Positions 2,198-27,637 of a stretch of 37,845 nucleotides of DNA are shown in pieces. The translations under genes and the position numbers were made by a program. Origin of the DNA: a virus (Duplodnaviria; Heunggongvirae; Uroviricota; Caudoviricetes); IMG/VR virus record IMGVR_UViG_2579779052_000009. One strand, 5' to 3'. The notes beneath the pieces were generated by a model. That model saw only the letters and a program-made list of their open reading frames with translations, did not search any database and was not told where the DNA came from. The stretch's first letter is position 1. Each line of letters opens with the position of its first letter.

Positions 2198-2240
2198 CCC
2201 GCCAGTCAACAAATGGCTCTTTGACCGGCGGGATTTTTTT
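2198..2240. terminator. GC-rich hairpin with T-tract just downstream of the esterase gene
   Basis: CCCGCCAGTCAA ... TTGACCGGCGGG (11/12 complementary) followed by ATTTTTTTAT on +; A-tract on the other side, so possibly bidirectional. Confidence 0.4.
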
Positions 2241-2247
2241 ATCCTGC

Positions 2248-4302
2248 TTACGCGTTATTCACTTCCACCACGATACTGTCAATCAGTACCGGGTAAGTCG
2301 CATTTTTAGTGATATCGGTCACGCGCAACTTGTCTGCCGTAAACGTGCCGACCGGAGACTGCGACAGCATGAATGGTGTCCCGTCCTTACCATCAATGAC
2401 CGGCGTCACCTCAATACTGTTGTTACCGGCAAAACGGAAGCCCAGCGTATGCCATTCGTTATTAAATGCGCCGAATGACCCCAGCTTCGTGTTCTGCGCC
2501 GTGTTTCCTTTGTGATACATCACGTTAAGGTCTGTGGCATCGCTCTGTACGTAGAACGATGCCAGCAGGTTATGACCGGCATTTCCTTCCAGAGTAACCC
2601 CTTGCGGCAGGGCAGAAACCGGCCAGTACAGCGCCAGTGCGTACTGATTAGCCGTAAGCGCGCCATCGAGTTTAAAACGACAACTGACAAGACCACCTTT
2701 ACCCAGCAGGTCCGCACCATTACCAGCATCATGCTCAAGGTACCAGGGGGCTCTTCCTGTTTCCTTGGTCAGTTTCATTGCCTTACCCCCGCTGGCTCCG
2801 GCATCATCCACGATTTGAGCCTTGCCACCTCCGGCAGCCCAACCCTGTGGTGTCAACCGTCCTTCAGACTCAGATGCCCGGTAAGCAAATAGCGTACTCA
2901 TCGTCGTGGTGTCTGCGGGTGGCGTGGACGGTTTTGATGGTGTATCAGGTGACGGCTTCTCATCCGGTGGTGTCACGGTCTGCCCGCGCATCAGTTCAGC
3001 CGTGCGCCCTGCATGGAGCATAATAGCTGAGGCCAGACGGTCTGAAATGACGCCCCTGCGTGCCCATGAGCTGAAATGGCTGTCACGCTGTGTCGAAACA
3101 AAACTGCCCTGGGTTCGGGATGCTGCACCGTAATACCCGACAGCCACAATATCCGGGTCTTCCGCCGGAGCATTCGTTGGCGTGCTCTGTCCATTCTCAT
3201 CCGTCAGGAACGGTACAAAGAAAATTTTCTGTGCTTCCTTGCCTTTGTAGCCACCGTATACTGCCTCATATTTATCGGTGCCAGCGTTTTTCCAGTAATA
3301 CGTGGTATCACCGCAAATCCACGGCACCGTGGTGGCATTTCCACTCACGCACTGCGCAGCAAGCGGAGCCAGGTCAGTTCTGAACTGCTGAACCATGGCC
3401 GTGAATAAACTATTATGCTGCTGGCTTCCTGAGGCAAGGTCTGCCTCTCCCTGCATCCAGACCACAGCCAGAAGTTTGTTTTTCGGGTTTTTCGCCAGCG
3501 CGACTTTGGTGCGGCTTACCAGGTCCTGATACAGAGGTTTACCGGCCCCCCAGCGTGAAGAATCAGCGGAAGCACCGCTGGCCTCACTGAATGAGCCGTC
3601 GGCTCCAGTGGTGAATGCTGACCCGCCACGACAACAGGGCACCAGAAGTATCCCCGCATTCTGTGGGATATAGGGAAGCAGTTTTTTGGCAATATGCAAC
3701 CCCTGACCGACAGTCCCGTACTGGCCTTTTGCCAGATCAGCTTTCGGGTGGTTTATCCCGCTCATATCCTGAACATCATGCAGGCAGTGGTCTGCCGGAA
3801 TGATGTCGTTGTATGTACACGACGTACCGTTGGGCGTTACCGTACTGCGGCGTGCCAGTTGCTTAATGCGTGGGTCCGGGCGGTCAAACGAATCCGGTAA
3901 CGGCAGCCCCTCGCCGTAGGCCATGCCATTTGACTGACCCGCGAGAATGACAACAAAGTAATATTCCGGCTCTGAACTGCTGCCATTCGTGCTACCGGAA
4001 GGCCCGGCGTTATCCGGTGCATTCCAGTCGGAGGGCGTGAGCGTTCCGGCCACGTCAGATGTGATTGGAATGATGCCAGTCACGCCTGAACTGGTGATTT
4101 CTGCACTGGGATTACCGGATACCGGCATTACCCATAATGGCTCTTTCGTGCTGAAGCGGATCACGCAGTCTGCGAAGGTGATCCCCCCTTTATTACCCGA
4201 AGGGCGGAAAGGGCTTTCAATAAATGCCACCGTGCCACCGGCAACCTTGACTGAAAACTCTCCGGGCATGGCGGAGAGCATTTTCCACTTGGAGTCTGAC
4301 AT
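2248..4302 (-). CDS. SASA/SGNH-type carbohydrate O-acetylesterase, multidomain (NanS-p-like)
   Basis: Central block YYFVVILAGQSNGMAYGEG resembles the GQSN catalytic-serine motif of sialate O-acetylesterase (SASA) domains; Ser/Gly- and Pro/Thr-rich linkers separate an N-terminal domain and a beta-rich C-terminal domain. Sits where the G segment and gin would be in Mu. Confidence 0.65.
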   Translation of the reverse strand: MSDSKWKMLSAMPGEFSVKVAGGTVAFIESPFRPSGNKGGITFADCVIRFSTKEPLWVMPVSGNPSAEITSSGVTGIIPITSDVAGTLTPSDWNAPDNAGPSGSTNGSSSEPEYYFVVILAGQSNGMAYGEGLPLPDSFDRPDPRIKQLARRSTVTPNGTSCTYNDIIPADHCLHDVQDMSGINHPKADLAKGQYGTVGQGLHIAKKLLPYIPQNAGILLVPCCRGGSAFTTGADGSFSEASGASADSSRWGAGKPLYQDLVSRTKVALAKNPKNKLLAVVWMQGEADLASGSQQHNSLFTAMVQQFRTDLAPLAAQCVSGNATTVPWICGDTTYYWKNAGTDKYEAVYGGYKGKEAQKIFFVPFLTDENGQSTPTNAPAEDPDIVAVGYYGAASRTQGSFVSTQRDSHFSSWARRGVISDRLASAIMLHAGRTAELMRGQTVTPPDEKPSPDTPSKPSTPPADTTTMSTLFAYRASESEGRLTPQGWAAGGGKAQIVDDAGASGGKAMKLTKETGRAPWYLEHDAGNGADLLGKGGLVSCRFKLDGALTANQYALALYWPVSALPQGVTLEGNAGHNLLASFYVQSDATDLNVMYHKGNTAQNTKLGSFGAFNNEWHTLGFRFAGNNSIEVTPVIDGKDGTPFMLSQSPVGTFTADKLRVTDITKNATYPVLIDSIVVEVNNA

Positions 4303-5162: not shown

Positions 5163-6074
5163 TCAGACGGATGAAACTGTGCGCCAGGCATTACCGATAT
5201 ATATCTGCACCGGACGGTAATAAACGCCTCCGATATTATCGGCTGAACTTTTCCCGGTATCCTGCACGTTAATGCCTGAAAGCATACAACCAGAAGGTGC
5301 ACCATAACTCCAGGACATTTCATTACCTCCGGGTGAATGGTAACTCTGGGCACCAAGCTGAACGTTGCTAACGTATTTGTTATCAGCAGTAGCTTCAGTC
5401 ATACCGGAGGTAATGTATATGTCCTGCGTCCCGTCAAAAGGAACGCCATTAATATTTCTTGGGGTGGAGAGTTTATTCGCGGCAACGGCGGTGCCGTCCG
5501 ATGGCAGAGCATTCGCCGCCTTATTCACCGTTTCCCGTAAACCGACGTTATCGATAAAAGCCCCTTTATCCGGAATGTCTGCGCCGTTCTGCTCCCTGCG
5601 CAGGTAACGGTTATCACCTTCGCTTTTGCTGTAAACATCCAGATTATTACGGGCGGTTCCCTTATTCTCCAGGTCGGCGAGATTCTGATCCTTCGCCAGG
5701 GCATTAACGTCACCGGGACCAAGACTGTTTTTTGTGGCAAGTGTCCCCAGACCAAGATAACCACGGGCCAGACGCTGGGCCTCCGCACCGGCATCAGCAA
5801 TTTCTTTCAGGTTATTTTTCCGGGAAAAGGCATTCGCAGCGATAATGGCTTTAATGGACAGCGTAAGCTGGTTTAACTGCGCCTTATCCGGCTGAATACT
5901 GGCTTCAGCCAGAATATTCAGCAGTTCGGCCTGGAGAATATTCAGCCAGTCCTGACCAATCCAGCTGATACCTTTTTGTCCGTCACCTTCGGTAAACCAG
6001 GTGGTGGTATTACTCTGCGCCGGTGCCAGCGCAGGCATATTCGCCACGCCGGAATTATTATCAACATGAAACAT
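5163..6074 (-). CDS. tail fibre protein (S-like)
   Basis: Position after the baseplate genes; Gly/Asn/Ala-rich sequence with a phage tail-fibre-like repeat region (DNRYLRREQNGADIPDKGAFIDNVGL). Confidence 0.6.
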   Translation of the reverse strand: MFHVDNNSGVANMPALAPAQSNTTTWFTEGDGQKGISWIGQDWLNILQAELLNILAEASIQPDKAQLNQLTLSIKAIIAANAFSRKNNLKEIADAGAEAQRLARGYLGLGTLATKNSLGPGDVNALAKDQNLADLENKGTARNNLDVYSKSEGDNRYLRREQNGADIPDKGAFIDNVGLRETVNKAANALPSDGTAVAANKLSTPRNINGVPFDGTQDIYITSGMTEATADNKYVSNVQLGAQSYHSPGGNEMSWSYGAPSGCMLSGINVQDTGKSSADNIGGVYYRPVQIYIGNAWRTVSSV

Positions 6075-6634
6075 TAAATAGTCTCCTCTTCATGGCTGTT
6101 TGCATAAACGTAAATAAACGTCTGCCATGCAGGCTTATAACGGTTCAGAATACATTCCAGCGCACCGCCTTCATAAATACGCAGCGGCGTGAGAATATCA
6201 TCCAGCACATTCATATTCCGGTAGCCGGTTTCACTGTTAATCGTGACAATACTGACCCACTGCGAATCCGGTGAGGGCTGAATGTCAATCTGATAACCAA
6301 ACTCCGCCGCAAACCGGATATAAAATTCACGGTTCAGCGAGGGCTTCATCCGGTATTTATTGCCGGCATAACGCTGTCGCTCCGTGAGGGTGGCTCCGGC
6401 CATATCACACTCGGGAAGCCCGAGATAACGCTCCCAGTCTTCCAGCAGCAGGCGCGACGTGTCAGGGAAACGCTCGGCAAGCAGCTGTTTACCCGTCCAG
6501 GATACACGCGCTGTCGAATGACTGAGGCCCAGACATAATGATGCCAGTACGGATGACGGACGCTTGTCCCATGCCAGCCCGTCAGGCAGTAACTGCAACA
6601 GGGCGCGCTGATGTGGGGTCAGGGTTACAGCCAT
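6074..6634 (-). CDS. tail/baseplate protein, Mu gp48-like
   Basis: Position between baseplate J and tail fibre; 186 aa; overlapping start/stop with neighbours. Confidence 0.55.
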   Translation of the reverse strand: MAVTLTPHQRALLQLLPDGLAWDKRPSSVLASLCLGLSHSTARVSWTGKQLLAERFPDTSRLLLEDWERYLGLPECDMAGATLTERQRYAGNKYRMKPSLNREFYIRFAAEFGYQIDIQPSPDSQWVSIVTINSETGYRNMNVLDDILTPLRIYEGGALECILNRYKPAWQTFIYVYANSHEEETI

Positions 6635-11207: not shown

Positions 11208-13251
11208 AGTTCCCTCCGTTCCAGACGTTCACATCCAGGCCATGCTGTGCGGTATCATCCACATCAATACTGCGCGCCCGCCAGCCTTCAGGGGCCACAA
11301 GCTCCACCCGTGCGGCGGTTTTCGCGGTGGCCTGTCCGCCGTTTTCGTCACTGCCGCCACGCAGTTTCTGCCAGGCCTGCGTCAGCCAGCCCCCCAGATA
11401 ATCACCGAGATAGCTGCCCACCGTGGAACCAATGGCAACCCCGACCGGACCAGCAGCCGCCCCCAGCGCGCCACCGGCGATACTTCCGGCAAGGGAACCC
11501 ACGGCACCGGCTTTATCGGCTGCACTGGCGCTGCTGTCCAGCAGTACAGGAGCCGCCATGGCACCGGCCCACAGGGCACCACCACCCAGCCGACCGGCAC
11601 CACGGAACAGCCCGGCAAAACGCCCCAGCCCCATGCGGTTTCCGGCCGCCGTTAGCAGACCACCGGCACGGCTCATCATACGACCGAAGAAGCCCTGTTT
11701 ACCGGCACTCTCCGCCAGTTGCTCACCGGCAGTCACGATGGTCGTGACACCCCGTCCACGTCCGGGGCCGCGTTTTTTACGGCCGCGCACGATTTTGCCG
11801 TCACCGCTGACCACCACATCCCCGCCACCTGAGGCCAGGCCACCCGCAGGCCAGTTGGTGACCAGCACGGGCTGAACGGCAGCCGGATTTACCCCGGTAA
11901 GGAAATTCAGGAACCGGCCAGCGCGTCCGGGCTGCGTTCCCGGCACAGTGGTCTGCGGTTTGCGGAAGGGCGACGTCAGCACGGAGGTCATCGCCATGCC
12001 ATAGCGTAAGGGGGTTGCGCCGAGACGTAATGCCCCCGTCCCCGCAAACCTGAGCACCTTCAGCGCACGGGAGGCGAGATACATATACATCAGGTACTTT
12101 GCGGCGGTCTGCGCACCCTGACCAATGCGATCCAGCGCATCGCCATAACCGGCGTCGCGCAGTGCCTGAAGCGTTTCCCTGACTTTCTGAATGACCCGGT
12201 AAAAGCCGGTCGCAGCGTCTCTGGCATACTCAAATCCCTGATTCAGAGCTGAGGCCGTCTGTGTGGCCAGCTTATCCTGTAAGCCGCTTTTCTGTGCCGC
12301 ATCGGCATAATCCAGGAAGCCTTTCAGGCTCTTTTTCAGGCTGTCAAACGGTCCCTTTGCCATCACCTCGCGGGCAAATCCGTCCCAGACGTCGCCCATC
12401 ATGGACGTCATTCCCGTCCAGGAATTCATGGCGTTTTTCTGGGCACCTTTTGCCTGTTCGGCCATCACCTGAAATAACAGGCGAATGCTGTCCGGCCCCA
12501 GTTTTCCTTTTTCGCCTTTCTCACGGATGATCTTCTGGTTTACGCCCAGCTTATCGGCCAGTAACTGGTAAACGTTAATCCCGTATCCGGTCAGAATATT
12601 GGCGTCCGCTGCCTGGATACTCTGGCGGGCAAACATCTGTTTGAGTTGCAGGGACGCACCCTGTGCATCTGACAGTGACCAGCCGTGATAGCCGCCCTGA
12701 TCCTGAAGCATGGTAATAAAGCGACGGGCTTCCCTGTCACTCATGCCAAACCCGCGACTGGAGGCGTATTCCTGCATAACCCCCGCCAGCCCCCAGGTGG
12801 TGTCTTTGGCGTTCTGTACTGCCCAGGCTTTCACTGCTTCCGTTTTTGCCGTATCGCCATGATTAATGGCGTTGAGACGCAGAATATAGTTCTCCATCTC
12901 TGCGGCCGGGCGGATAAAGGCTTTATTAAAACCGTAGACCGCAGCCCCTCCCGCCAGCATCCCGTAAAGGTTGCTTATCCGCCCGATGGTGCCGGTAATG
13001 CTGCCCTGCAGGCGGTCAAAATCTGACGTTACCGTGCGGATGCTGCCACGAACACCGGCAAGCGTTCGCTGCATACGGGAGCCGACAAGTTCTGTTTCCT
13101 GACCGGCCCGGCGGGCTGCATTTCCAAGACCACCCAGGCCTGTCCTGCCGGAACGGGAGAACGCCCCCAGCTCCTGTGACCACTGGCGGGATTTGGCGGA
13201 AATATTGCCGAGTAAATCGACAATCAGGGAGGCTTTCAGGTTTTTTGCCAT
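11194..13251 (-). CDS. tail tape measure protein
   Basis: 685 aa, Ala/Gly-rich with a Gly-rich C-terminal region; follows the chaperone pair and precedes N. Confidence 0.8.
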   Translation of the reverse strand: MAKNLKASLIVDLLGNISAKSRQWSQELGAFSRSGRTGLGGLGNAARRAGQETELVGSRMQRTLAGVRGSIRTVTSDFDRLQGSITGTIGRISNLYGMLAGGAAVYGFNKAFIRPAAEMENYILRLNAINHGDTAKTEAVKAWAVQNAKDTTWGLAGVMQEYASSRGFGMSDREARRFITMLQDQGGYHGWSLSDAQGASLQLKQMFARQSIQAADANILTGYGINVYQLLADKLGVNQKIIREKGEKGKLGPDSIRLLFQVMAEQAKGAQKNAMNSWTGMTSMMGDVWDGFAREVMAKGPFDSLKKSLKGFLDYADAAQKSGLQDKLATQTASALNQGFEYARDAATGFYRVIQKVRETLQALRDAGYGDALDRIGQGAQTAAKYLMYMYLASRALKVLRFAGTGALRLGATPLRYGMAMTSVLTSPFRKPQTTVPGTQPGRAGRFLNFLTGVNPAAVQPVLVTNWPAGGLASGGGDVVVSGDGKIVRGRKKRGPGRGRGVTTIVTAGEQLAESAGKQGFFGRMMSRAGGLLTAAGNRMGLGRFAGLFRGAGRLGGGALWAGAMAAPVLLDSSASAADKAGAVGSLAGSIAGGALGAAAGPVGVAIGSTVGSYLGDYLGGWLTQAWQKLRGGSDENGGQATAKTAARVELVAPEGWRARSIDVDDTAQHGLDVNVWNGGNYGLY

Positions 13252-13254
13252 GGG

Positions 13255-13449
13255 TTACTGCTTCGTTCTGAGAATTTTTTCGGTCTGTCGGCAGTGCCGG
13301 TAAAGCTGCGATAAAGGGAGGTTAAGCGCCCACTCCGGGCCGCTTTTTGTCACCATCCCCAGCACAATTGCGGCTTCTTCAATCTGATCCCGGCACTGCA
13401 TCTGGTCGCCCCCGTTCAGCGACCAGCTTTCCTGCCATCGCGGAATCAA
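13255..13449 (-). other. overlapping out-of-frame ORF: candidate frameshift extension of the tail chaperone
   Basis: Open frame overlaps the last 23 codons of the chaperone and runs to 4 nt before the tape measure start; the conserved G/GT-type arrangement. Confidence 0.45.
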
Positions 13450-13858
13450 GCAGGCTTACCGCCGCCATCAGACGGGAGAGATCGCGCTCGCTGAGCTGTC
13501 CGATCTGACGCGGAGACAATGGCCCCTCAATCTGGCCAACAGCGGCAATCTGACGGCGCAGCAGTGCAATGCCGCGCAGTGCCGGCGAGGCTATCAGAAC
13601 CGGGCCGCCATTTCGGGTTTCCATAAGACGCTCGGCCTCGGTTTCCGCGTCAATGCTGTCTTTCGCCGTCAGTTCGCGGAAGGTGACGCGGTATTCACGG
13701 GATTCCCCGAACGGCAGACCGTCGAGCAGATCCACATAGCCGTTCGCCAGCTGTTCAGCCAGCCCGGCGGTGCGGGGATCGCCGTCTTCAAGTGCATCCC
13801 GGATAGCCTCCATCACGGCCTCGTCAGAAACCGCCGTTTTTTTCTTACGTGTGGTCAT
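13379..13858 (-). CDS. tail assembly chaperone (Mu gp41-like)
   Basis: 159-aa acidic protein between the tail tube and tape measure genes. Confidence 0.6.
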   Translation of the reverse strand: MTTRKKKTAVSDEAVMEAIRDALEDGDPRTAGLAEQLANGYVDLLDGLPFGESREYRVTFRELTAKDSIDAETEAERLMETRNGGPVLIASPALRGIALLRRQIAAVGQIEGPLSPRQIGQLSERDLSRLMAAVSLLDSAMAGKLVAERGRPDAVPGSD

Positions 13859-13872
13859 TGCATTTTTCCTGA

Positions 13873-14238
13873 TTACTGGACACGGGTACTGGTGGCGCTG
13901 GCGAACTTCGCGGAGATATCACCGCCACCGTCAAGCGAGGCCGGTTCACTGCTCCAGGCCTTCGTCATCATGTGGACTTCACCGGTATCGGCCACGAACT
14001 CAATCGTGACCGCAGTCCAGGTGTTGATTTCATCGGCAGCCGGTGAACCTTCTCCGCCTGCCGGAAATTTACAGTCCAGCGTCGCCTCACGGGGTTTCTC
14101 ACGATAGCCATAGACTTTCGCGCCTTTCACCACTTCACGCTCAAAGCCGGACGGGGAGAACGTGGCTCCCTCAAGGGTGGCGTACTCCTGTCCGTTCACA
14201 CGGATGGTGGCCGTGCCCTGATGCTGTTTTCCGCTCAT
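13873..14238 (-). CDS. tail tube protein (Mu M-like)
   Basis: 121 aa directly after the sheath gene. Confidence 0.65.
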   Translation of the reverse strand: MSGKQHQGTATIRVNGQEYATLEGATFSPSGFEREVVKGAKVYGYREKPREATLDCKFPAGGEGSPAADEINTWTAVTIEFVADTGEVHMMTKAWSSEPASLDGGGDISAKFASATSTRVQ

Positions 14239-14246
14239 GCCTTACC

Positions 14247-15749
14247 TCACAAAATGAAACGGATCTGCGCGGCCATGAAGCGGAACTGGTTAACCAGATC
14301 CGGTGTACACATCACATCCAGACGGTTACGGTCTTTTGTGTTGCGCTCCACGAGCAGATTCTTTTTAAAGGTGTCCAGATTTTCGACCAGCCCGAGTTCC
14401 ACCCATTCTTCCCCCAGTGCAATCAGCTGGAGCGTCATAATCTCCGGCGTCACGATATTCTGACCGGGCCGGACGGGAGTACCGTTATCGGCCAGTTTGT
14501 GGCGCGGGAAACGCTGCGTGATAAAGGTGCGCAGGGAATAACGCAGATATGACAGGGTGTAGATGGTTTCTACATCCAGATAGCTGGGATCGCTTTCGCC
14601 GTATGCATTCTGACGGTACATCGTCACCTGACGTTCAATCTGCACCACATCAGCGGCCGCAACGGTCACCGTGGACATGCCGGTATAAAGCAGGCTGTTT
14701 CGCTCTTCCCGCGTCAGACGATCCGGTGCTTCAGGTGCCATACGGGCAGGCAGCGCCAGTGTCTGTAATGGTCGGGCCGGATCCGTTGACAGGGAGGGCG
14801 CACAGACCGCACAAATGGAGGCAGCCCAGACATAATCCGGCTCTGGTGCTTTAGGAATAGAAGTGCAGGTAAACAGGAAGTCATTACGGGATTCACCAAA
14901 ACTGGTTGCCGTACCGAAGGTGCCGGTATGCGCCATCCAGACCATACCGTCCGACATTTTTACCGGTCCCCAGCGTTTCAGCAGTTCATCCGCCAGAATT
15001 TTGAGATTTGCCGCATCCTTATAGGGCATGACGATGTAGTTGTACTGACGATTCCCCATCCCTGAGACGCTACGGGTGATATCGGGGTTTGTTGCCTTCT
15101 GTGTTGGCGCGACGAGCTCCAGCGTAAGACCGGCCGGTGTAGTTTCACCGTCATAATAGTTCACCCGTAAATCATGAGCTGAGCATTCACCGATAAAGCG
15201 GGCGTTAACCCCCATGCTGCCTTTAAGTCCTTCAGCATTATCACCACTGACTTCAGCTGCGATAGCAGTGAATGGCGCATCAGTGTCAGCGTTAATGACC
15301 TTAGCCAGCTCTTCCACAAGCTCTTTACCTTTTTTCCCCTTACTGACGGGCAGGAGGTAACGGCGACCGCCGATGTAAACACTTAACACCCCGTCTGCCA
15401 ATGCTGTTCCAATGATATTCATCACGCATGCCCTGGACTGACCTGTTCCAGCCCCCTGTGCAATGGCATATAACTCTGTGTCAGGGTTAATGGCGATAAA
15501 TTCCTCTACCATCAGTGCAATCATGGAACCTCGCCCCCAGAGTTCTCTTGCTTGTGAAGCTCGGGTAATACGTACTGGTACATCAAGCTGACCGCGCCCC
15601 TGAATGGTGGTGTCTTTCATTGCAGCCTGACCAAACAACAGTACCGCCTGACGCTGTGGTGGAGTGCCGGTCACGGCCATTGAATTATTGATTTCAATCT
15701 GTACCAGCGGAATGCGATTGTTATCGCCGATATAATCAAAGTTAATCAT
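14247..15749 (-). CDS. contractile tail sheath protein (Mu L-like)
   Basis: 500 aa, position and length typical of myovirus sheath. Confidence 0.8.
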   Translation of the reverse strand: MINFDYIGDNNRIPLVQIEINNSMAVTGTPPQRQAVLLFGQAAMKDTTIQGRGQLDVPVRITRASQARELWGRGSMIALMVEEFIAINPDTELYAIAQGAGTGQSRACVMNIIGTALADGVLSVYIGGRRYLLPVSKGKKGKELVEELAKVINADTDAPFTAIAAEVSGDNAEGLKGSMGVNARFIGECSAHDLRVNYYDGETTPAGLTLELVAPTQKATNPDITRSVSGMGNRQYNYIVMPYKDAANLKILADELLKRWGPVKMSDGMVWMAHTGTFGTATSFGESRNDFLFTCTSIPKAPEPDYVWAASICAVCAPSLSTDPARPLQTLALPARMAPEAPDRLTREERNSLLYTGMSTVTVAAADVVQIERQVTMYRQNAYGESDPSYLDVETIYTLSYLRYSLRTFITQRFPRHKLADNGTPVRPGQNIVTPEIMTLQLIALGEEWVELGLVENLDTFKKNLLVERNTKDRNRLDVMCTPDLVNQFRFMAAQIRFIL

Positions 15750-20249: not shown

Positions 20250-21579
20250 AATCAATTTGTCCTTCCAGCACCTCAAGCATTCCGCCCCGGATATCCGATT
20301 TCAGCTTATCCATATTGATAACCCGGTAAGCATTCACAATCACATCCAGTTTGTCGGGCTGACGTTTCAGACTGTACGGTGCATTAACGGCAATCTGCAC
20401 ACTGCCATCCTTATTTTCCACGATATACATCAGATTTTTGTGCCGTTTGTCCCACAGCACCGCTTTTGGCTTTGCCAGCATTGCCGGTAAGCGCCCGAAG
20501 TCCTCTGGCATCAGGGCGATGCCGTCATTCTGATGTTTCACACTGTCTGCATGGAGCACATTTTTACCGCTCATCGCCAGCAGGCGGGCCGGTGGCGTTC
20601 CCGTCCGGCTTTCCACTGCCTGCGCAATGCTTTCAGTCATAAAGCCCAGCGTGCGGATATCGTTACCACCTCGCCGGGTCTGCATGATGTTTTTTGCCCA
20701 GATGCGGAACGCCAGCTGCCGCTCCGGGCTGTTGTTCATCTCCTGAACCACCATTTCCCGTAACGCCGGGCTTTTCACCTCGATCAGTTTGCGGATCAGC
20801 GCCTGGTCTGTGCCGAACGCTGCCGAGCCGGGGTTATATGACCAGCCCACATCCGGTGTCATGGTTCTGGTGCCATCTGAATATGTGGTCACCGGCATTT
20901 CTCTGACTTCTCCGGTCTGTTTATCCACGCCAGCCTCAACATTGCGGGTGGAGAGATGATCCTCACCGGATGAAACGGATAACCCCATTGCATCCAGACG
21001 AGCCTGAGACAATGGCCGCACACGGCAGCGGCAGTTCCAGCCATTAGGTGGGTAGTGTGTTTTCCAGAACGGATCGTCATAGCGGAATACCAGACCGTTA
21101 AGGGCGGAATGCGACGGGCGGGTACGGCTGTCCATGACCGCCACATACTGCCAGAACGGATGCGTGTCCGTGTTGTTCATCATCTGCGTGTAACGCCCGG
21201 CATTGTAAGCCACCCGGGTGTTCACGTTGTAAATCAGCGCCAGACGACGGGGACTGCCCAGTTGCACTTCTTCCGCGTTACCGTCGCTGTCCACCACAAT
21301 CTGCTTTCCCCACCATCCCAGCTTTTGCAGGCGTGGCGTCAGCGTGCGGATAAATGCTTTCTGTGAAATTCCCTCATCAATGGCCCGCTGCACTTCGGCC
21401 TGTAACGTGGTCACCACATCCAGGCGTGCCGCTTTTGCTGCCGTGAATGAGCGGGCATGAACATCCGCGGCTGTTTCGAACCAGTTCCAGCTGATATGCG
21501 CCCCTTTGACACGGAAGTATGCTACCGCCTCTTTTGAGGGAAGCGTGGCGGCATAACCTAAATCAATCCCCTGTGTCAT
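20248..21579 (-). CDS. head morphogenesis protein (Mu F-like)
   Basis: 443 aa following the portal gene with a 17-nt overlap. Confidence 0.75.
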   Translation of the reverse strand: MTQGIDLGYAATLPSKEAVAYFRVKGAHISWNWFETAADVHARSFTAAKAARLDVVTTLQAEVQRAIDEGISQKAFIRTLTPRLQKLGWWGKQIVVDSDGNAEEVQLGSPRRLALIYNVNTRVAYNAGRYTQMMNNTDTHPFWQYVAVMDSRTRPSHSALNGLVFRYDDPFWKTHYPPNGWNCRCRVRPLSQARLDAMGLSVSSGEDHLSTRNVEAGVDKQTGEVREMPVTTYSDGTRTMTPDVGWSYNPGSAAFGTDQALIRKLIEVKSPALREMVVQEMNNSPERQLAFRIWAKNIMQTRRGGNDIRTLGFMTESIAQAVESRTGTPPARLLAMSGKNVLHADSVKHQNDGIALMPEDFGRLPAMLAKPKAVLWDKRHKNLMYIVENKDGSVQIAVNAPYSLKRQPDKLDVIVNAYRVINMDKLKSDIRGGMLEVLEGQID

Positions 21580-23152
21580 CCAGCATCCCCTTCATTTCCG
21601 CAGCAAACATGGCATCACTGAGCAGCGTCATCAGGCGGGAATCATCCATTTCACGATAAAGGGCAGGCAGGTCTGCCAGCGCATCCGCCAGCCCCCGCGT
21701 TCTGATGGCATCAATGACCGGCTCCAGTACCGGGTCGATGGCCTCCTGTAAGCGGCGGGCAGGCACCGCGTCCCCCATATCATCCAGTTCATCACGCGGC
21801 GTGCTTTTCGCTTCCGGCAGTCTGGCTGACAGCGCCGTCTGCTCTGTTTTTTCCTGTTTTTCCGGTGGTGTTTCCCTGTCGGTCTGAGCCGGTTCATTGC
21901 CACTCTGACGGACACGGAATATGGCTTCACCGGGCGTGGGCTGCGGAATACCGGTCTGCTCACGTATCCAGGGATCAGAAATATCCATCCCCGTACTGAG
22001 CTGCATCACCGCACTGGTGATTTTGGTGATATCACCTGGTTCTTTTGTCTGGAAGCAGATACGTGGCAGACGGCGGATATCAATAGTGTGCGTGGTGTTC
22101 AGGGCGTACAGCGGATACACCAGATCGCGGTTCAGGGTTGCAGCCAGCTGTCGTAAATCAGAATCCCTGATTTCCCGGCGCACCTCGTTATGTACCTCAC
22201 CCAGTGAGCGCGCGCCTTTGTCTCCGGCTTCCGTGGTCAGCGTGCCGCCGAGTATTGCTTTGGAGATGGAACGCTCCCCCCACGAAATCATGGTTTCAAA
22301 CGGATCGGCCTGACCGTTCGCTGCCGCCTGAAACTCCAGCGACATCCCGGCCGGGATGATCCCGCCTGTACGTCGCCCGATATCCATCCCCGCCCGCATC
22401 AGGGCACTTTTCTGCTCCGGTGTTGCCCCGGACGGGTATTTCCCGACCTTCATCGGCAGGCCGTACACCTCCAGAAATTCCGCCAGATCGCGCACGGAAT
22501 AGTTTTTGAAAATGAACGGCCAGATAAGCGTCCGGACAAGCCCGGTTGCACCACCGTAACCGGTGCGTGAACGCGACTGATGCACTATCCAGCCAAAGGG
22601 CTGAAACGCCACCCCGGAATGGCTGCCGTCACGCAGCCGCAGTTCGCTCAAATCATCCGGGTTAAGGCAGAAATGCCCGCTGTCACGCCAGCGGATGGCG
22701 CGGATGATGTGCATTTTACCGAGCATCCCGTGCTCAATTTCCATGCAGGAATAGCCCTTCAGGATGGCATCCGTGGCGTCAAACAGCATGGCATCAAACC
22801 AGTCTGCGGAATGCAGATATTCGTCGAGCATTTCCGCGTCCTTTTTCTCATTCGCGCTGGCGTTCGGTGGCGGCTCAATACTCCATGGCACCCCCTGAAT
22901 GGCAAGACGTCGCTTGCCCAGCTCCGCAAAAAGGTGGGTGTCCTTTTCTTCAATATCAGCGGCCAGATCGGACTGGGCAATCAGATCGCCACGTTCAGCC
23001 CCGCGAAGGCACTGCGCCGCCCGGTTCGGGGTGATACCCGAAGCCGGATGTTCAATATAACGGCTGGCAATCTGCGGAATATCCAGCGCGGCACTCTGCA
23101 TCTCCGGGTCAAAGGAGAAAGGTTTTCCGTCAGTATCAATGATGCGTCCCAC
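21563..23152 (-). CDS. portal protein (Mu gp29-like)
   Basis: 529 aa immediately after the large terminase with start/stop overlap. Confidence 0.8.
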   Translation of the reverse strand: MGRIIDTDGKPFSFDPEMQSAALDIPQIASRYIEHPASGITPNRAAQCLRGAERGDLIAQSDLAADIEEKDTHLFAELGKRRLAIQGVPWSIEPPPNASANEKKDAEMLDEYLHSADWFDAMLFDATDAILKGYSCMEIEHGMLGKMHIIRAIRWRDSGHFCLNPDDLSELRLRDGSHSGVAFQPFGWIVHQSRSRTGYGGATGLVRTLIWPFIFKNYSVRDLAEFLEVYGLPMKVGKYPSGATPEQKSALMRAGMDIGRRTGGIIPAGMSLEFQAAANGQADPFETMISWGERSISKAILGGTLTTEAGDKGARSLGEVHNEVRREIRDSDLRQLAATLNRDLVYPLYALNTTHTIDIRRLPRICFQTKEPGDITKITSAVMQLSTGMDISDPWIREQTGIPQPTPGEAIFRVRQSGNEPAQTDRETPPEKQEKTEQTALSARLPEAKSTPRDELDDMGDAVPARRLQEAIDPVLEPVIDAIRTRGLADALADLPALYREMDDSRLMTLLSDAMFAAEMKGMLDDTGD

Positions 23153-24816
23153 TACCAGCCCCCCCGATCAAATTCATGATATGCCTCATCGTCATCACGA
23201 TAACCGCCCTCCATTGCCCGCGACCGCTCCGGTAGCGCCTGACAGGCTGATTCATCCAGGATGAAGCCCTCCATGTATGACGCCCGGTTTGCCATACAGA
23301 GCGCCACGGCAAAATCACCATGGCGGCGGGCGTTCGCAGCCGTTGCGTTCTGGTCCTTCGTGCGCCCCTTGTCGATTTGCGGGATACCATTCACTACCTT
23401 CACATGGCGCAAATCATCAAGCGTGGTCTGATGGCGGGCGACGAGGATATTCTGATCTTCAAACTCGGCTTTCAGTTTTGGCATCCACTCGCCGTACCAC
23501 TTCGGCGACAACATCACGCAGTCGATGATGTCCGGGCCAAAGGCCAGCAGTGCGGCCTCTGCCAGATAGCCGCCGTTACCGGTGGCGTCGAACGCCGCAC
23601 CGACCAGCGCCGGAACGCGGGTCAGGATGTACATCATCACCTGTTCCTGCTGGGCATACGGCAGGTTGCGCAGCTCCACGCGAAACACCTCGCGCTTTGC
23701 CAGGGATTCGGTGATTTCCAGCAGCACAAAGCAGGACAGGTCACCGGTGCGGGCAAAGTCTTCCCCGAAGCTGAAGCGGGAACGGGGATTTAATTTCTCT
23801 AAAAGCGGTTTTAAATGTTCTTCACACCAGGTTAAAACTTCCGATTCACGCAGCCATGCGGCACGGCTGATGAAGTTGTCCGGGGCTTCAAACGTCAGAA
23901 TCGGGATGTCGCGGATCATCGCCATTTCAATAAGCGCGTGGGGGATATAGGCACCGCCGGATTTTTTCGGGATACAGCCGTATTCCTCGTCGGCATCCTC
24001 ACGGGTCGGGGCATTTTTGTAGAGATCATCACGCCATTTCTGCTCGCTTTCCGGTGACCATTCCTGATCGGTGACGTAACAGATACGACGGTACAGCCCG
24101 TCCGCAATGGCATCATCCAGGGTTATGCGGTGGACGCTGTAATCCTTGCGCCCCTCGCGGGCTTCCTGAATGTACTGATTAAACAGATTATCGACGCCGT
24201 TATGCGTGGAGATAATACGCACGCGCGCGCCCCACATAGTGAGCGCCATTGCCGCCTTGAGAAGTTCATCCAGCGACTCGTGGAACGCGGCTTCATCAAT
24301 CACCACATCCCCCTGAAGGCCGCGCAGGTTTGACGGACGGGAAGACAATGCCTGAATTTTGAATCCACTGTTCGGAAAGCGGATCATGTAGGTCAAAATT
24401 TCTTCTTTTTTATCCCGATCCCAGAATGTCTGCTCATACACATCAGCATCTGCCAGCTGGTTAAAGGCACGGGAGAACAGCGCGCAGGCAGAAATATATT
24501 CCAGCGCCATCTCCTGCTTTGATCCCACATAAAACACATTGCGGCCACCACGACGCTTCGGTTTTGCAGCAGTAATGACGTTACGCCCGGCTTCCGCCCA
24601 GGTAAGACCGGTGCGGCGGGATTTTTCCGCAATGCAGACCTGACTTTCATCCTCAAACCAGCGGGCCTGATAATCCAGAAACACCGGCATATCACCGGGC
24701 AAATCAAGTCTGTCCGGCACATCCACGCCCAGCAGGGCTTTTTCACCGGACAGATCAATTTTGCGGGGAGGCGTCATTTGTATCAGTGAAGGAGACGTTT
24801 CTTTGGCTTTGTTCAT
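23152..24816 (-). CDS. terminase large subunit (Mu gp28-like)
   Basis: 554 aa; position between the gp27-like and portal genes. Confidence 0.8.
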   Translation of the reverse strand: MNKAKETSPSLIQMTPPRKIDLSGEKALLGVDVPDRLDLPGDMPVFLDYQARWFEDESQVCIAEKSRRTGLTWAEAGRNVITAAKPKRRGGRNVFYVGSKQEMALEYISACALFSRAFNQLADADVYEQTFWDRDKKEEILTYMIRFPNSGFKIQALSSRPSNLRGLQGDVVIDEAAFHESLDELLKAAMALTMWGARVRIISTHNGVDNLFNQYIQEAREGRKDYSVHRITLDDAIADGLYRRICYVTDQEWSPESEQKWRDDLYKNAPTREDADEEYGCIPKKSGGAYIPHALIEMAMIRDIPILTFEAPDNFISRAAWLRESEVLTWCEEHLKPLLEKLNPRSRFSFGEDFARTGDLSCFVLLEITESLAKREVFRVELRNLPYAQQEQVMMYILTRVPALVGAAFDATGNGGYLAEAALLAFGPDIIDCVMLSPKWYGEWMPKLKAEFEDQNILVARHQTTLDDLRHVKVVNGIPQIDKGRTKDQNATAANARRHGDFAVALCMANRASYMEGFILDESACQALPERSRAMEGGYRDDDEAYHEFDRGGW

Positions 24817-25064
24817 CAGGCTTTACCTGTCAGAATGCTTTTGATTCGGAACTCAAGCTCTTCAGTCATCACGTCCACGCCACTCAACTCATCAGTGACA
24901 GCCTCTGCCAGCAGCGAATGCAGTTGTTCCAGGGATATTTCCCCGGCAATGCTGAGTTCAGTCAACTCACGACACGCTTTTATGGTTTCAGGAGGTAACT
25001 GTGTTGCAAGACTGAATGCCTTCTGATGAGCACTACTCATCAGTGAGCGGTTATCTGTTACCAC
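24816..25064 (-). CDS. small protein sharing the gp27 C-terminal segment
   Basis: C-terminus AVTDELSGVDVMTEELEFRIKSILTGKA is near-identical in pattern to the gp27 C-terminus; AGGAGG 6 nt upstream of a GTG start; its stop overlaps the terminase ATG (TGATG). Confidence 0.5.
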   Translation of the reverse strand: MVTDNRSLMSSAHQKAFSLATQLPPETIKACRELTELSIAGEISLEQLHSLLAEAVTDELSGVDVMTEELEFRIKSILTGKA

Positions 25065-25074
25065 GATTCACCTC

Positions 25075-25656
25075 CTACGCCTTACCAAGCAGCATCTGCC
25101 TGATACGGAATTCTATCTGCTCGCTCATGCCATCCACGCCGCGCAACTCGTCGGTGACGGCGTTCGCCATCTCTTCAGCAAATGCGGCCCGGATTTCTTT
25201 TTCACGCTTAATACTGCGCTCGGCGGCACTTTCTGCACGCTGTGCCGACAGGAGGATGTCCTTGATGAGGCGCATATCCACATCGCTGTCGCTGTTCAGG
25301 GATTCGGTGGCGGCACGCAGACGGCGGTACATCAGGGCACGGGACATCTCCAGAATCAGTGCCGTGGTTTCACCGGTCGGCTTATCCCCCAGTTCGGCCA
25401 TCATGGCTTTTGTCTGCTCGCGTAAATCACGCAGATTACGGGCAATCAGCTCATTACGGGAGGCTTCCCGGCTGATGGCCGCCGGTGAAAGCTGCTGCTC
25501 TTCCGGCAGGCCTGCCTCACGGATCAGACGGTTGATTTCCTCGCGGATCTGGACCTGCGTCAGGCGTTTTTCACGCAGCATTTCCAGCAGCGGCTTACGG
25601 ATGCTGTCGGGGAGCAAATCCACCTTGCGTACACGGCCACGCGTCGGCTTATCCAT
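25075..25656 (-). CDS. Mu gp27-like protein (putative terminase small subunit)
   Basis: 193 aa, Arg/Glu-rich helical protein immediately upstream of the large terminase. Confidence 0.65.
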   Translation of the reverse strand: MDKPTRGRVRKVDLLPDSIRKPLLEMLREKRLTQVQIREEINRLIREAGLPEEQQLSPAAISREASRNELIARNLRDLREQTKAMMAELGDKPTGETTALILEMSRALMYRRLRAATESLNSDSDVDMRLIKDILLSAQRAESAAERSIKREKEIRAAFAEEMANAVTDELRGVDGMSEQIEFRIRQMLLGKA

Positions 25657-25658
25657 CG

Positions 25659-25949
25659 TTACCCCCTTGCGCGTGGTTTCTTCACACCCGGAACAGTGGC
25701 ACGACCTTCCGCCACATCCTGACCCCGGCCGGTCAGTTCAGCGATGAAATAACCGTTAACAAGCGTGCGCTTACGCACCAGTCCCTGCTCAGCAAGCCAG
25801 GCAATGTGGGTGTGAACGGTGTCGCGGGACACGCGGTGGCCGTAATCATCCAGGCAGTCCTGAAGCACGGATTCGCCCAGTTCGCCGTTGTAATCCGCCA
25901 GCGACCGCAGAATGACAAGACGCTGATCTTCAGTAATGAAATCACTCAT
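25659..25949 (-). CDS. small winged-helix-like protein (Mu gp26 position)
   Basis: 96 aa; position upstream of gp27. Confidence 0.45.
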   Translation of the reverse strand: MSDFITEDQRLVILRSLADYNGELGESVLQDCLDDYGHRVSRDTVHTHIAWLAEQGLVRKRTLVNGYFIAELTGRGQDVAEGRATVPGVKKPRARG

Positions 25950-26253
25950 TGTGTTTTTTCCTTACAGCCTGCTCCAGCAGCAGTTCGTTCTGGTGGGAGA
26001 CGGATTTCAGGGTGGCATTGGTGGCCTTAAGCTCACCGCGCAGGGTGGTGATTTCGATATTGAGTCTGTTCACCTCCTGCTGCGTGGGCAGGCCGGAAAT
26101 CCGGCTCTCCACCCGCTCAACCCGGTCGGAGAGTTTTTCAAAGGCCTCGCGGGGGACAAAGGTTTTGCGCATCAGCGCCATAAAGATCCCCCCGGCCGTG
26201 GCTGTTGCCGACAGGATCGGCACGACATAATCTTTAACGATGCTGACCCACAT
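25942..26253 (-). CDS. membrane/coiled-coil protein (Mu gp25 position), candidate holin-like
   Basis: N-terminal hydrophobic segment VVPILSATATAGGIFMAL followed by a coiled-coil-like region. Confidence 0.45.
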   Translation of the reverse strand: MWVSIVKDYVVPILSATATAGGIFMALMRKTFVPREAFEKLSDRVERVESRISGLPTQQEVNRLNIEITTLRGELKATNATLKSVSHQNELLLEQAVRKKHNE

Positions 26254-27136: not shown

Positions 27137-27637
27137 TCAGACTTTCGGCAAATCGTAGCGACACAACCATTCATCCGCCGAACGGCGGGCCTCAAGACCG
27201 GGGAGTTTTACCCCCTTTGAATAAATCCAGCGGATATACTGCTTACAGGACCCGGGCATCTGCCCGGCATTGATAAGGCGCAGGAGCGTGGAGTTGCGAA
27301 AGTTCGTTTCACCGGCCCAGAAAATCCAGGAGGCCAGCGCCACCGTCTGACCACGGGTAAGCGGCACCTGAACATGACGATCGATAGCCGCAAAGGCCCA
27401 TTTCATGTCCTTTTCCAGCAGCTCCAGACATTCTTCATCAGTTTTTGTCATCCCCGGTTTCACATCCGGGCCGGTATGGCCGTAACAGATGGTGGGGGTG
27501 CCGGTGGGATCAATGTACGTGGTGTTTTCTTTCCCTTCCCAGTAGCCGGTGTAGTGCGTGGCAATGGTGAACGTCCCGGCTCCGGCCAGAACAAGGGCAA
27601 TCAGCTTTTTACGCAGGGGTGCGGGGAGTTTTGGCAT
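27137..27637 (-). CDS. endolysin, lysozyme-like with SAR-type N-terminus
   Basis: Lysozyme-like Glu/Asp/Thr spacing (EGKENTTYIDPTGTPT) after a weakly hydrophobic Gly/Ala-rich N-terminal segment LIALVLAGAGTFTIAT. Confidence 0.75.
   Translation of the reverse strand: MPKLPAPLRKKLIALVLAGAGTFTIATHYTGYWEGKENTTYIDPTGTPTICYGHTGPDVKPGMTKTDEECLELLEKDMKWAFAAIDRHVQVPLTRGQTVALASWIFWAGETNFRNSTLLRLINAGQMPGSCKQYIRWIYSKGVKLPGLEARRSADEWLCRYDLPKV

What the first reader, a model, noticed from the sequence alone, without database searches (positions are those of the whole stretch)
24816..25064. Short paralog of the gp27 C-terminus, translationally coupled to the large terminase
An 82-aa ORF between gp27 and the large terminase repeats the last 30 or so residues of gp27 almost motif for motif. 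It has an AGGAGG ribosome-binding site and its stop overlaps the terminase start codon. I do not recall such a gene in Mu. It may be an alternative or decoy terminase-interaction module, or an internal duplication fixed as a separate gene.
Basis: seen in the sequence. Interest (0 to 1): 0.5.

Follow-up and report, generated by a model that had tools for sequence, protein, structure and literature searches.

The report
Chimeric small gene at terminase junction
The 82-codon gene between the two DNA-packaging (terminase) genes of this Mu-like E. coli prophage looks like a recombination product: the front of a small phage gene joined to a spare copy of the small-terminase tail. It is weakly conserved and missing from most relatives, so it is an ordinary by-product of phage gene shuffling.

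Summary
ORF82 (24816-25064, minus strand) has an AGGAGG site 6 nt before its GTG. Its stop overlaps the large-terminase (TerL) ATG. Its last 31 residues match the gp27 tail (20/31 identical, E=1e-12).

It is not a simple internal duplication. Residues 1-55 belong to an unnamed 65-aa gene family that sits between gp27 and TerL in Salmonella and Citrobacter Mu-like prophages. That family has no gp27-like tail and is under purifying selection (omega 0.14-0.32). The ORF82 tail is closer to the gp27 tail of a different E. coli lineage, where gp27 abuts TerL directly, than to its own neighbour (71-78% against 60-67% nt identity). The two parts meet at an Ala-x-Ala microhomology. I read ORF82 as an in-frame chimera made at a mosaic joint.

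It evolves about ten times less constrained than its neighbours (omega 0.4-0.9 against 0-0.09). It has lost tail residues conserved from Mu to E. coli. Only 25 of 231 related E. coli records carry it, and one relative has it cut down to nine codons.

My inference is that its main retained role is relaying ribosomes to TerL. A docking or decoy role on TerL is not excluded but is not supported. Interest is low to moderate.

The parts
25075..25656 (-). gp27, the putative small terminase subunit (193 aa) of the Mu-like prophage
   Evidence: Pfam PF11985 E=3e-33; PHROG 426 'terminase small subunit' E=9e-55; 57% identical to Mu gp27.
25078..25170 (-). gp27 tail (residues 163-193, MANAVTDELRGVDGMSEQIEFRIRQMLLGKA). 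This is the 'B/C/D-type' tail. Its last ~16 codons are strongly diverged at DNA level from the A-type tail.
   Evidence: The AF2 model (low confidence, pLDDT 55) places it as the end of a long helix, a loop at 172-178, and a terminal helix at 179-189.
25071..25076 (-). AGGAGG Shine-Dalgarno site for ORF82. It overlaps the gp27 TAG stop and lies 6 nt upstream of the GTG.
   Evidence: Read. The homologous GAGGTG/GGGGTT element with an ATG or GTG start is kept in all form B, C and D loci and in Salmonella.
24816..25064 (-). ORF82 (82 aa), the chimeric small gene. It is a full-length match to PHROG 30922 (unknown function).
   Evidence: It is annotated as an intact CDS in the four E. coli complete genomes examined.
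24900..25064 (-). ORF82 residues 1-55. This domain is homologous to the 65-aa small-gene family found between gp27 and TerL in Salmonella and Citrobacter, and to the 67-aa E. coli-type variant P0012.
   Evidence: BLASTP against Citrobacter orf65: E=2e-7, 35% identity over 43 aa. The profile search finds 15 Salmonella clusters. Alignment A6. phmmer places P0012 on residues 1-55.
24900..24911 (-). Inferred recombination joint: codons 52-55 (L-A-E-A). This is an Ala-x-Ala microhomology shared by the small-gene parent (VAHA) and gp27 (MANA).
   Evidence: Alignments. Similarity to P0012 ends here and similarity to gp27 begins here. The joint is inferred, not observed.
24819..24911 (-). ORF82 tail (residues 52-82, LAEAVTDELSGVDVMTEELEFRIKSILTGKA), a diverged copy of an A-type gp27 tail.
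   Evidence: 20/31 identical to its own gp27 tail. 71-78% nt identity to the A-type tail against 60-67% to its own gp27 tail. The invariant R and G of ELRGxDG are replaced by S and V.
24825..24828 (-). Weak AGGT Shine-Dalgarno-like element, 8 nt upstream of the TerL ATG, inside the last codons of ORF82.
   Evidence: Read. The same GGTAAAGCCTGATG context closes A-type gp27. Its function is inferred.
24814..24818 (-). TGATG stop/start overlap between ORF82 and TerL, a translational-coupling arrangement.
   Evidence: An overlap of -1 or -4 between the gene upstream of TerL and TerL is found in 17 of the 22 surveyed Mu-like prophages with both genes called and in Salmonella.
23152..24816 (-). Large terminase (TerL, 554 aa). 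Its first ~10-20 codons (24770-24816) are a variable patch among relatives.
   Evidence: PHROG 2. N-terminal comparison of forms A-D, Citrobacter and Mu. L010 rejoins the window only at 24786.

Best explanation
ORF82 is an in-frame chimera born at a mosaic joint between two arrangements of the terminase genes.

One parent carried gp27, a strong ribosome-binding site, and a ~65-aa small gene upstream of TerL. This arrangement is seen in the Salmonella and Citrobacter loci examined and in rare E. coli-type contigs. The other parent was the common E. coli 'form A', in which the gp27 stop codon directly overlaps the TerL start.

An illegitimate crossover at a short Ala-x-Ala microhomology joined codon ~55 of the small gene to codon ~163 of the form-A gp27. 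The recombinant therefore kept a complete gp27, the first 55 codons of the small gene, a second gp27 tail, and the TerL that came attached to that tail.

Because the fusion is in frame, ribosomes loading at AGGAGG terminate exactly at the TerL ATG (TGATG). The ribosome relay that feeds TerL in almost all relatives is thus preserved. I infer that this relay, more than the peptide's sequence, is what selection now retains.

The protein is probably made, but it is only weakly constrained and dispensable. Its tail copy appears to be decaying, and any binding to TerL is likely residual.

Shown: the chimeric composition, the provenance of each half, the polymorphic presence, and the relaxed constraint. 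Inferred: the direction and mechanism of the recombination, the translation of ORF82, and the coupling to TerL.
For: 1. Composition. Tail homology to gp27 is E=1e-12. Residues 1-55 are homologous to the 65-aa family. That family is unrelated to gp27 and lacks the tail.

2. Four junction forms exist among close relatives.
- Form A: gp27 directly abuts TerL (L003; about 206 of 231 E. coli records).
- Form B: ORF82 is present (25 records).
- Form C: gp27, then orf67, then a 120-nt spacer, then TerL559 (L010).
- Form D: gp27, then the ribosome-binding site, then a nine-codon stub fused next to TerL559 (L019).

3. blastn arms. The left arm of form A ends at window 25079. Its right arm begins at 24923, so the form-A gp27 tail matches both the gp27 tail and the ORF82 tail.

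4. Tail provenance. All seven ORF82 tail alleles are closest to the A-type gp27 tail: 0.71-0.78 nt identity, against 0.60-0.67 to their own gp27 tail. The GGTAAAGCCTGATGAA junction is shared with form A. The window's gp27 tail plus ribosome-binding site is 96% identical to form C.

5. Weak constraint.
- Variable sites by codon position are 14/16/20 in ORF82, against 4/3/57 in gp27 and 6/7/54 in TerL.
- omega is 0.39-0.93 for ORF82, against 0-0.05 for gp27 and 0.04-0.09 for TerL.
- The gp27 protein is the identical accession WP_000360580.1 in four genomes where the ORF82 protein differs each time.
- Salmonella orf65 has omega 0.14-0.32.

6. Tail decay. The motif ELRGxDG(M/I)SE is conserved from Mu through Salmonella to E. 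coli. All ORF82 alleles have ELS(G/S)VDVMTE instead.

7. Coupling as the conserved feature. The gene upstream of TerL overlaps the TerL start in 17 of 22 surveyed loci and in Salmonella. Even the form-D stub ends overlapping the TerL start.
Against: - Some purifying selection remains. Two allele pairs give omega about 0.4 with P(omega>=1)<0.01, and the tail alone gives omega about 0.2-0.3 in several pairs. The peptide may therefore still matter.
- The ORF is intact in all seven distinct alleles with no indels. However, shuffling the positions of the observed substitutions leaves all alleles intact in 7.6% of trials, so openness alone is not significant.
- In form C the small ORF ends 120 nt before TerL, so coupling is not obligatory for every TerL variant.
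- TerL has its own weak AGGT element. The TerL start region shows no unusual RNA structure that would enforce coupling (z=0.1).
- The direction of events is not proven. Form A could instead have arisen from form B by deletion between the two tails, which predicts a similar similarity pattern.
- No expression data were available.
Confidence: 0.6

Rival explanations
1. ORF82 is a functional terminase accessory. The grafted small-terminase tail docks the 55-aa small-gene domain onto TerL, where it acts as an adaptor, a regulator of nuclease or ATPase activity, or a competitor (decoy) of gp27.
For: In lambda and P22 the C-terminal region of the small terminase is the part that binds the TerL N-terminus (PMC9611059). 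The tail travels together with the TerL N-terminal module it was attached to in form A. The ORF, its ribosome-binding site and its start codon are intact in all alleles. omega is below 1 in some comparisons, and tail omega is 0.2-0.3 in several pairs. The parent 65-aa family is under purifying selection, so the N-terminal domain once had a function next to the terminase genes.
Against: omega is about ten-fold higher than in the neighbours, and variation is flat across codon positions. The R and G residues that are invariant in the gp27 tails examined are replaced in every ORF82 allele. About 90% of related E. coli prophage records lack the gene, and another has reduced it to nine codons. The structure model is low confidence and gives no fold match.
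Confidence: 0.22
2. ORF82 arose as a tandem internal duplication of the gp27 3' end within one genome, followed by divergence, with the N-terminal part formed de novo from duplicated or spacer sequence.
For: Two copies of the tail lie 259 nt apart in direct orientation. A deletion between them would regenerate form A.
Against: Residues 1-55 are homologous to a pre-existing gene family in the same slot in other genera. They show no similarity to gp27 or TerL. The tail is nearer to the A-type gp27 tail than to the adjacent one in all seven alleles. The adjacent gp27 tail plus ribosome-binding site is shared with forms C and D and resembles the Salmonella arrangement.
Confidence: 0.05
3. ORF82 is a non-expressed relic. 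The reading frame is open by chance, and TerL initiates independently from its own weak Shine-Dalgarno element.
For: Codon-position variation is near neutral. Openness of the ORF is not statistically remarkable (7.6% of shuffles). TerL has an AGGT 8 nt upstream of its ATG. In form C, TerL starts without an overlapping upstream ORF.
Against: A consensus AGGAGG at ideal spacing and a start codon (GTG or ATG) are kept in every allele, and there are no indels in seven alleles despite 20% variable sites. Two comparisons give omega significantly below 1. Homologs are conserved as ORFs across genera.
Confidence: 0.12

Closest known systems
Phage Mu gp27 / Pfam PF11985 (Phage_Mu_Gp27, DUF3486), the putative small terminase subunit
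   Same: The last 31 residues of ORF82 are a diverged copy of the gp27 C-terminal tail (end of a helix, a loop, and a terminal helix). The gene lies in the terminase operon directly upstream of TerL, and its stop overlaps the TerL start exactly as A-type gp27 does.
   Different: ORF82 gives no Pfam match at E<=0.1. It lacks the N-terminal helix-turn-helix-like region and the long central helices. The conserved R and G of the tail motif are replaced. It sits alongside a complete gp27 rather than replacing it.
Unnamed 65-aa small-gene family between gp27 and TerL in Salmonella enterica and Citrobacter braakii Mu-like prophages (P0135-P0150; annotated 'hypothetical protein')
   Same: Same genomic slot, the same ribosome-binding-site architecture after the gp27 stop, and a stop that overlaps the TerL start. 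Residues 1-55 are homologous (pairwise E=2e-7), with shared A-x-x-x-x-A-F, C-R and I-A positions.
   Different: The 65-aa proteins end in ...LEDKVKKV and have no gp27-like tail. They are under clearer purifying selection (omega 0.14-0.32, against 0.4-0.9 for ORF82). The function of the family is unknown.
PHROG 30922 (unknown function)
   Same: ORF82 matches the whole 82-position profile (E=1e-55), so the E. coli form is already catalogued as a phage protein family.
   Different: The catalogue gives no function and does not record the chimeric make-up. gp27 hits only positions 51-82 of that profile.
Mosaic joints and 'novel joints' in temperate phage genomes: illegitimate recombination at or near gene boundaries (Hendrix/Hatfull model). 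This comparison rests on my own knowledge.
   Same: Closely related genomes differ by a block whose ends fall near gene boundaries. A short microhomology lies at the joint. A partial gene copy is left behind. Alternative forms (A-D) co-circulate in one host species.
   Different: Here the joint fell inside two genes and happened to be in frame. It created a translatable fusion that keeps the upstream-gene/TerL stop-start overlap.
Terminase-targeting small proteins of phage satellites (SaPI Ppi, PICI Rpp). This comparison rests on my own knowledge.
   Same: A small protein that could in principle bind a terminase subunit and alter packaging.
   Different: Those proteins are encoded by satellites, bind the helper phage's small terminase, and are not copies of a terminase tail. 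ORF82 lies in the phage's own late operon, and no binding has been shown.

Membership tests
Phage_Mu_Gp27 (PF11985) small terminase | Significant match to the Pfam model across the protein | tested here: not met
   hmmscan found no family at E<=0.1 for ORF82. gp27 itself scores 116 bits.
Phage_Mu_Gp27 (PF11985) small terminase | N-terminal DNA-binding region and long central helices (oligomerisation core) | tested here: not met
   BLASTP similarity is confined to the last 31 residues. The ORF82 model has four short helices, whereas gp27 has helices 58-88, 95-120 and 128-171 (both models are low confidence).
Phage_Mu_Gp27 (PF11985) small terminase | Conserved C-terminal tail motif AVTDELRGxDG(M/I)SExLExRIxxxLLGKA | tested here: inconclusive
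   20-22 of 31 positions are kept, but the invariant R and G (and S) are replaced in all seven alleles.
65-aa small-gene family between gp27 and TerL (Salmonella/Citrobacter) | Sequence homology over the helical N-terminal ~55 residues | tested here: met
   BLASTP E=2e-7. A profile search retrieves both groups. Alignment A6.
65-aa small-gene family between gp27 and TerL (Salmonella/Citrobacter) | Position: immediately after the gp27 stop with its own SD, and a stop overlapping the TerL ATG | tested here: met
   Window, Salmonella loci L050-L053 and Citrobacter L020.
65-aa small-gene family between gp27 and TerL (Salmonella/Citrobacter) | Native C-terminus (...LEDKVKKV) and a length of ~65 aa | tested here: not met
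   ORF82 is 82 aa, and its residues after ~55 are gp27-like.
PHROG 30922 | Full-length profile match | tested here: met
   E=1.1e-55, residues 1-82 on profile positions 1-82.
Translationally coupled gene pair | Stop codon of the upstream ORF overlaps or abuts the start codon of the downstream gene | tested here: met
   TGATG at 24818-24814. The arrangement is conserved in relatives.
Translationally coupled gene pair | Downstream translation depends on upstream translation | not testable with these tools
   This needs reporter fusions or ribosome profiling. The RNA fold around the TerL start is unremarkable (z=0.1), and a weak AGGT is present.
Terminase decoy or inhibitor (Ppi/Rpp-like) | Physical binding to a terminase subunit that changes packaging | not testable with these tools
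   No complex-modelling tool or experiment was available. Only single-chain models were obtained.

The most novel reading that the evidence does not exclude
The ~65-aa gene wedged between the small and large terminase genes of enterobacterial Mu-like phages could be a third, so far unrecognised, packaging factor. In the E. coli form it would have captured a small-terminase tail that tethers it directly to the TerL N-terminus, making ORF82 a working adaptor or regulator of the Mu-type packaging motor rather than a scar. The relaxed evolution would then reflect adaptation after the fusion.
Probability: 0.12. Interest if true: 0.55.

Novelty: new member of a known kind. Interest (0 to 1): 0.25.

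Why it matters
This is a clean, well-resolved example of how phage mosaicism makes new reading frames. Four alternative gp27/TerL junctions co-circulate in one host species, and one of them is an in-frame fusion that keeps the ribosome relay into the large terminase.

It also flags two things for annotation and for packaging studies. First, there is a conserved but unnamed 65-aa gene between the terminase subunits in Salmonella and Citrobacter Mu-like prophages. Second, there is a variable block made of the gp27 tail plus the TerL N-terminus, which by analogy with lambda and P22 is the likely contact between the two subunits.

It does not change current understanding of Mu packaging unless the peptide proves to bind TerL.

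Tried and rejected
- ORF82 N-terminus as a copy of the TerL N-terminus. By eye, 'SLATQLPPETI' resembles 'SLIQMTPPRKI'. BLASTP finds no alignment at E<=100, so I rejected it.
- The 65-aa family as an ancient gp27 fragment. hhalign gives probability 0.3%, so I rejected it.
- An exhaustive phmmer search of ORF82 against 1.84 billion representatives gave only 6 hits. Two of them (P0013, P0014) are repetitive proteins. It gave no wider family, but it did yield P0012, which led to form C.
- Pfam and NCBIfam scans of ORF82 and of the 65-aa proteins found nothing. The PDB sequence search with gp27 found nothing meaningful.
- The AF2 model of ORF82 (pLDDT 65) searched against viral structures with Foldseek gave no hit below E=0.7. 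The gp27 model (pLDDT 55) is too poor for fold comparison.
- RNA structure sequestering the TerL start: z-score 0.1, not supported.
- ORF openness as evidence of selection: 7.6% of shuffles keep all alleles open, so the test is not decisive.
- Look-ups of the 49-aa truncated variants P0008 and P0009 returned no contigs.
- The literature search for Mu gp27/gp28 terminase work found nothing relevant in the held library.
Full report
**1. What is at the coordinates**

The window carries a complete Mu-like prophage whose late genes read on the minus strand. The local gene order is:
- lysozyme (27137-27637);
- spanin-like ORFs;
- a TraR/DksA-type zinc-finger gene;
- a DUF2730 gene (25942-26253);
- a gp26-like gene (25659-25949);
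- gp27 (25075-25656);
- ORF82 (24816-25064);
- TerL (23152-24816);
- portal (21563-23152).

gp27 matches Pfam PF11985 (E=3e-33) and PHROG 426 'terminase small subunit'. TerL matches PHROG 2 'terminase large subunit'.

The sequence shows the arrangement around ORF82. The gp27 TAG is embedded in TAGGAGG. Six bases later comes the ORF82 GTG. The ORF82 TGA shares one base with the TerL ATG (TGATG).

BLASTP aligns ORF82 residues 52-82 with gp27 residues 163-193 (20/31 identical, E=1e-12), and nothing else in ORF82 matches gp27. Mu itself has only a 7-nt gap between gp27 and gp28.

**2. Distribution: four junction forms**

A megablast of the 1.3-kb junction against 5,426 complete E. coli genomes hits 231 records. 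Twenty-five carry the full stretch. The rest lack 259 bp, which is exactly ORF82 plus its spacer.

- Form A, the short form (for example O157:H7, locus L003). The gp27 stop overlaps the TerL start directly.
- Form B, the window's form, with ORF82.
- Form C. An exhaustive phmmer search found almost nothing beyond the E. coli family, but it did find a 67-aa protein (P0012) sharing residues 1-55. Its locus (L010) has gp27, then orf67, then a 120-nt spacer, then a TerL with a different first ~15 codons.
- Form D, a second prophage in E. coli CI5 (L019). It keeps the gp27 tail, the ribosome-binding site and ATGGCAACAGA, fused 10 nt upstream of that same alternative TerL start. This leaves a nine-codon stub that overlaps the TerL ATG.

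**3. The N-terminal half belongs to another gene family**

I surveyed 30 gp27-encoding loci, one genome per species. In 17 of the 22 loci with both genes called, the gp27 stop overlaps the TerL start by 1 or 4 nt. These include Photorhabdus, Xenorhabdus, Aeromonas, Yersinia, Shewanella and Gilliamella.

Citrobacter braakii is an exception. It has a 65-aa ORF in the gap, with its own GAGGTG site and a stop overlapping the TerL ATG. This ORF is homologous to ORF82 residues 4-46 (35% identity, E=2e-7).

A profile search then retrieved 15 Salmonella enterica clusters of 65-67-aa 'hypothetical proteins' (and one 51-aa fragment). In all four Salmonella loci examined, the order is gp27, a 7-nt gap, orf65, and a 4-nt overlap with TerL.

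None of these proteins has a gp27-like tail; they end ...LEDKVKKV. A profile-profile comparison of the 65-aa family with the gp27 family finds no homology.

ORF82 is therefore two things joined together. Residues 1-55 come from the small-gene family, and residues ~52-82 come from gp27. The overlap falls on L-A-E-A, which corresponds to V-A-H-A in orf67 and M-A-N-A in gp27.

**4. Where the tail came from**

All seven distinct ORF82 tail alleles are closest at nucleotide level to the form-A gp27 tail (one search gives 78.7% over 94 nt):

| Compared with | nt identity |
|---|---|
| Form-A gp27 tail | 0.71-0.78 |
| Their own neighbouring gp27 tail | 0.60-0.67 |
| Salmonella, Citrobacter or Mu tails | 0.58-0.70 |

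The last bases of ORF82 and of form-A gp27 are the same (GGTAAAGCCTGATGAA), whereas the window's gp27 ends GGTAAGGCGTAGGAGGTG.

The window's gp27 tail plus ribosome-binding site is 96% identical to form C. It is architecturally like Salmonella (GGTAAGGCGTGAGGTGGCTATG).

blastn arms tell the same story. Form A aligns to the window up to 25079 on the left (89%) and from 24923 on the right (94%), so its single tail matches both tails of the window.

The simplest history is a crossover between a small-gene-bearing phage (form C or Salmonella-like) and a form-A phage. It would have joined small-gene codon ~55 to gp27 codon ~163. The reverse history, form A arising from form B by deletion between the two tails, predicts a similar pattern and cannot be excluded. 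Either way, the chimeric nature of ORF82 stands.

**5. How constrained is it?**

Variable sites by codon position among eight form-B loci:

| Gene | Position 1 | Position 2 | Position 3 |
|---|---|---|---|
| ORF82 | 14 | 16 | 20 |
| gp26-like | 3 | 3 | 31 |
| gp27 | 4 | 3 | 57 |
| TerL (first 250 codons) | 6 | 7 | 54 |

Twenty percent of ORF82 sites vary, against 9-13% in the neighbours.

Nei-Gojobori omega values:

| Gene | omega |
|---|---|
| ORF82 | 0.39-0.93 |
| gp27 | 0-0.05 |
| TerL | 0.04-0.09 |
| Salmonella orf65 | 0.14-0.32 |

For ORF82, the bootstrap intervals mostly reach 1, but two pairs give P(omega>=1)<0.01. For Salmonella orf65, all intervals lie below 1.

In four complete genomes the gp27 protein is the identical accession (WP_000360580.1), while ORF82 is a different protein each time.

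The tail motif ELRGxDG(M/I)SE is conserved from Mu through Salmonella to E. coli gp27. In every ORF82 allele it reads ELS(G/S)VDVMTE.

The frame, the start codon and the ribosome-binding site are intact in all alleles, and there are no indels. However, random repositioning of the 50 observed substitutions leaves all alleles open in 7.6% of trials, so openness alone is not significant.

Overall, constraint on the peptide is weak but probably not zero.

**6. Mechanism**

What is conserved across nearly all relatives is that the gene upstream of TerL ends on the TerL start codon. Even the nine-codon stub of form D does so. TerL has only a weak AGGT 8 nt upstream of its ATG.

I therefore infer that the in-frame fusion survived because it kept ribosome delivery to TerL, and that this relay is the main thing selection still sees.

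In lambda and P22 the small-terminase C-terminal region binds the N-terminus of TerL (PMC9611059). By analogy, the gp27 tail is the likely TerL contact, and the first 10-20 codons of TerL form a variable patch that travels with the upstream module. A residual or modified TerL-docking activity of ORF82 is therefore conceivable.

Against such a role stand the loss of invariant tail residues, the high omega, the absence from ~90% of E. coli relatives, and the deletion in form D. It cannot be ruled out computationally here, because only single-chain models could be made and both were low confidence (pLDDT 65 and 55). The RNA around the TerL start shows no special structure.

**7. Comparison with what is known, and novelty**

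ORF82 is not a member of the gp27 family: it gives no Pfam match and lacks the DNA-binding and oligomerisation regions. It is a full-length member of PHROG 30922 (unknown function). It is a partial, tail-swapped member of the unnamed 65-aa family.

As a phenomenon it is a textbook product of phage mosaicism, an illegitimate joint leaving a partial gene copy. The one uncommon feature is that the joint fell in frame and preserved the stop-start overlap.

I rate it a new member of a known kind, with low-to-moderate interest (0.25). The most novel reading not excluded is that the small gene is a third packaging factor which, in E. coli, acquired a TerL-docking tail. I give that about 12%.

Noticed in passing
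window 24770-24816 (TerL codons 1-~16); L003, L010, L019, L020, L018: The first 10-20 residues of TerL differ sharply among otherwise 94-97% identical relatives: MNKAKETSPSLIQMTPP (window), MNNAEELSPLLTNTVST (form A), MSKRTGEEKIKPDTGLIKLSPP (forms C and D), MSDEQKRLVALTPP (Citrobacter). All converge at ...RKIDL. The patch co-segregates with whatever lies upstream. By analogy with P22, it may be the small-terminase contact.
   Followed up: partly
L019:2478-2517 (E. coli CI5, NZ_CP011018.1): Form D keeps the ORF82-type ribosome-binding site and the first 11 nt of the small gene, fused next to the TerL559 start. This gives a nine-codon ORF (MATDWFSYE) that overlaps the TerL ATG by 8 nt. It looks like a deletion derivative of form C.
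   Followed up: partly
L043:3582-3788 and L044:3582-3788 (Vibrio paucivorans, Enterovibrio nigricans): An unrelated 68-aa ORF (MGIKKPTPPKILQYF...) occupies the same slot between gp27 and TerL and overlaps both neighbours. The gp27/TerL boundary may be a recurrent insertion point for small genes.
   Followed up: no
window 25078-25170 and the same region in L005 and L007: The gp27 tail shows very high synonymous divergence between form-B alleles (dS up to ~1.2 over 31 codons) while the protein is nearly invariant. This points to repeated recombination with strong purifying selection exactly at this boundary.
   Followed up: partly
Salmonella orf65 proteins P0139 and P0135: There is a weak hit to PHROG 220 'minor head protein and DNA pilot' (E=1.4e-5, profile positions 916-974 of 1338). 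ORF82 itself does not hit it. This is possibly a lead to the function of the 65-aa family, or an artefact of a heterogeneous profile.
   Followed up: no
L002 (E. coli JE86-ST05, NZ_AP022815.1) 1652-3317 and 5639-6138: In this form-B prophage, TerL and the lysozyme gene are annotated as frameshifted pseudogenes while ORF82 is intact. Some carriers are therefore decaying prophages.
   Followed up: no
L018 (phage Mu NC_000929.1) 12899-14554: In the RefSeq record Mup28 is labelled 'putative portal protein' and Mup29 'portal protein'. In this window the gene occupying the Mup28 position (immediately after gp27) matches the large-terminase PHROG, so the Mup28 label looks outdated. Mup28 itself was not scanned against any family library.
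   Followed up: no
P0016 (291 aa, Logan contig): This is a 291-aa protein covering all of gp27 at 97% identity. Its length fits an in-frame gp26-gp27 fusion (96+193 aa, genes 2 nt apart in the window). It could be a sequencing error or a real fusion. I did not check it.
   Followed up: no
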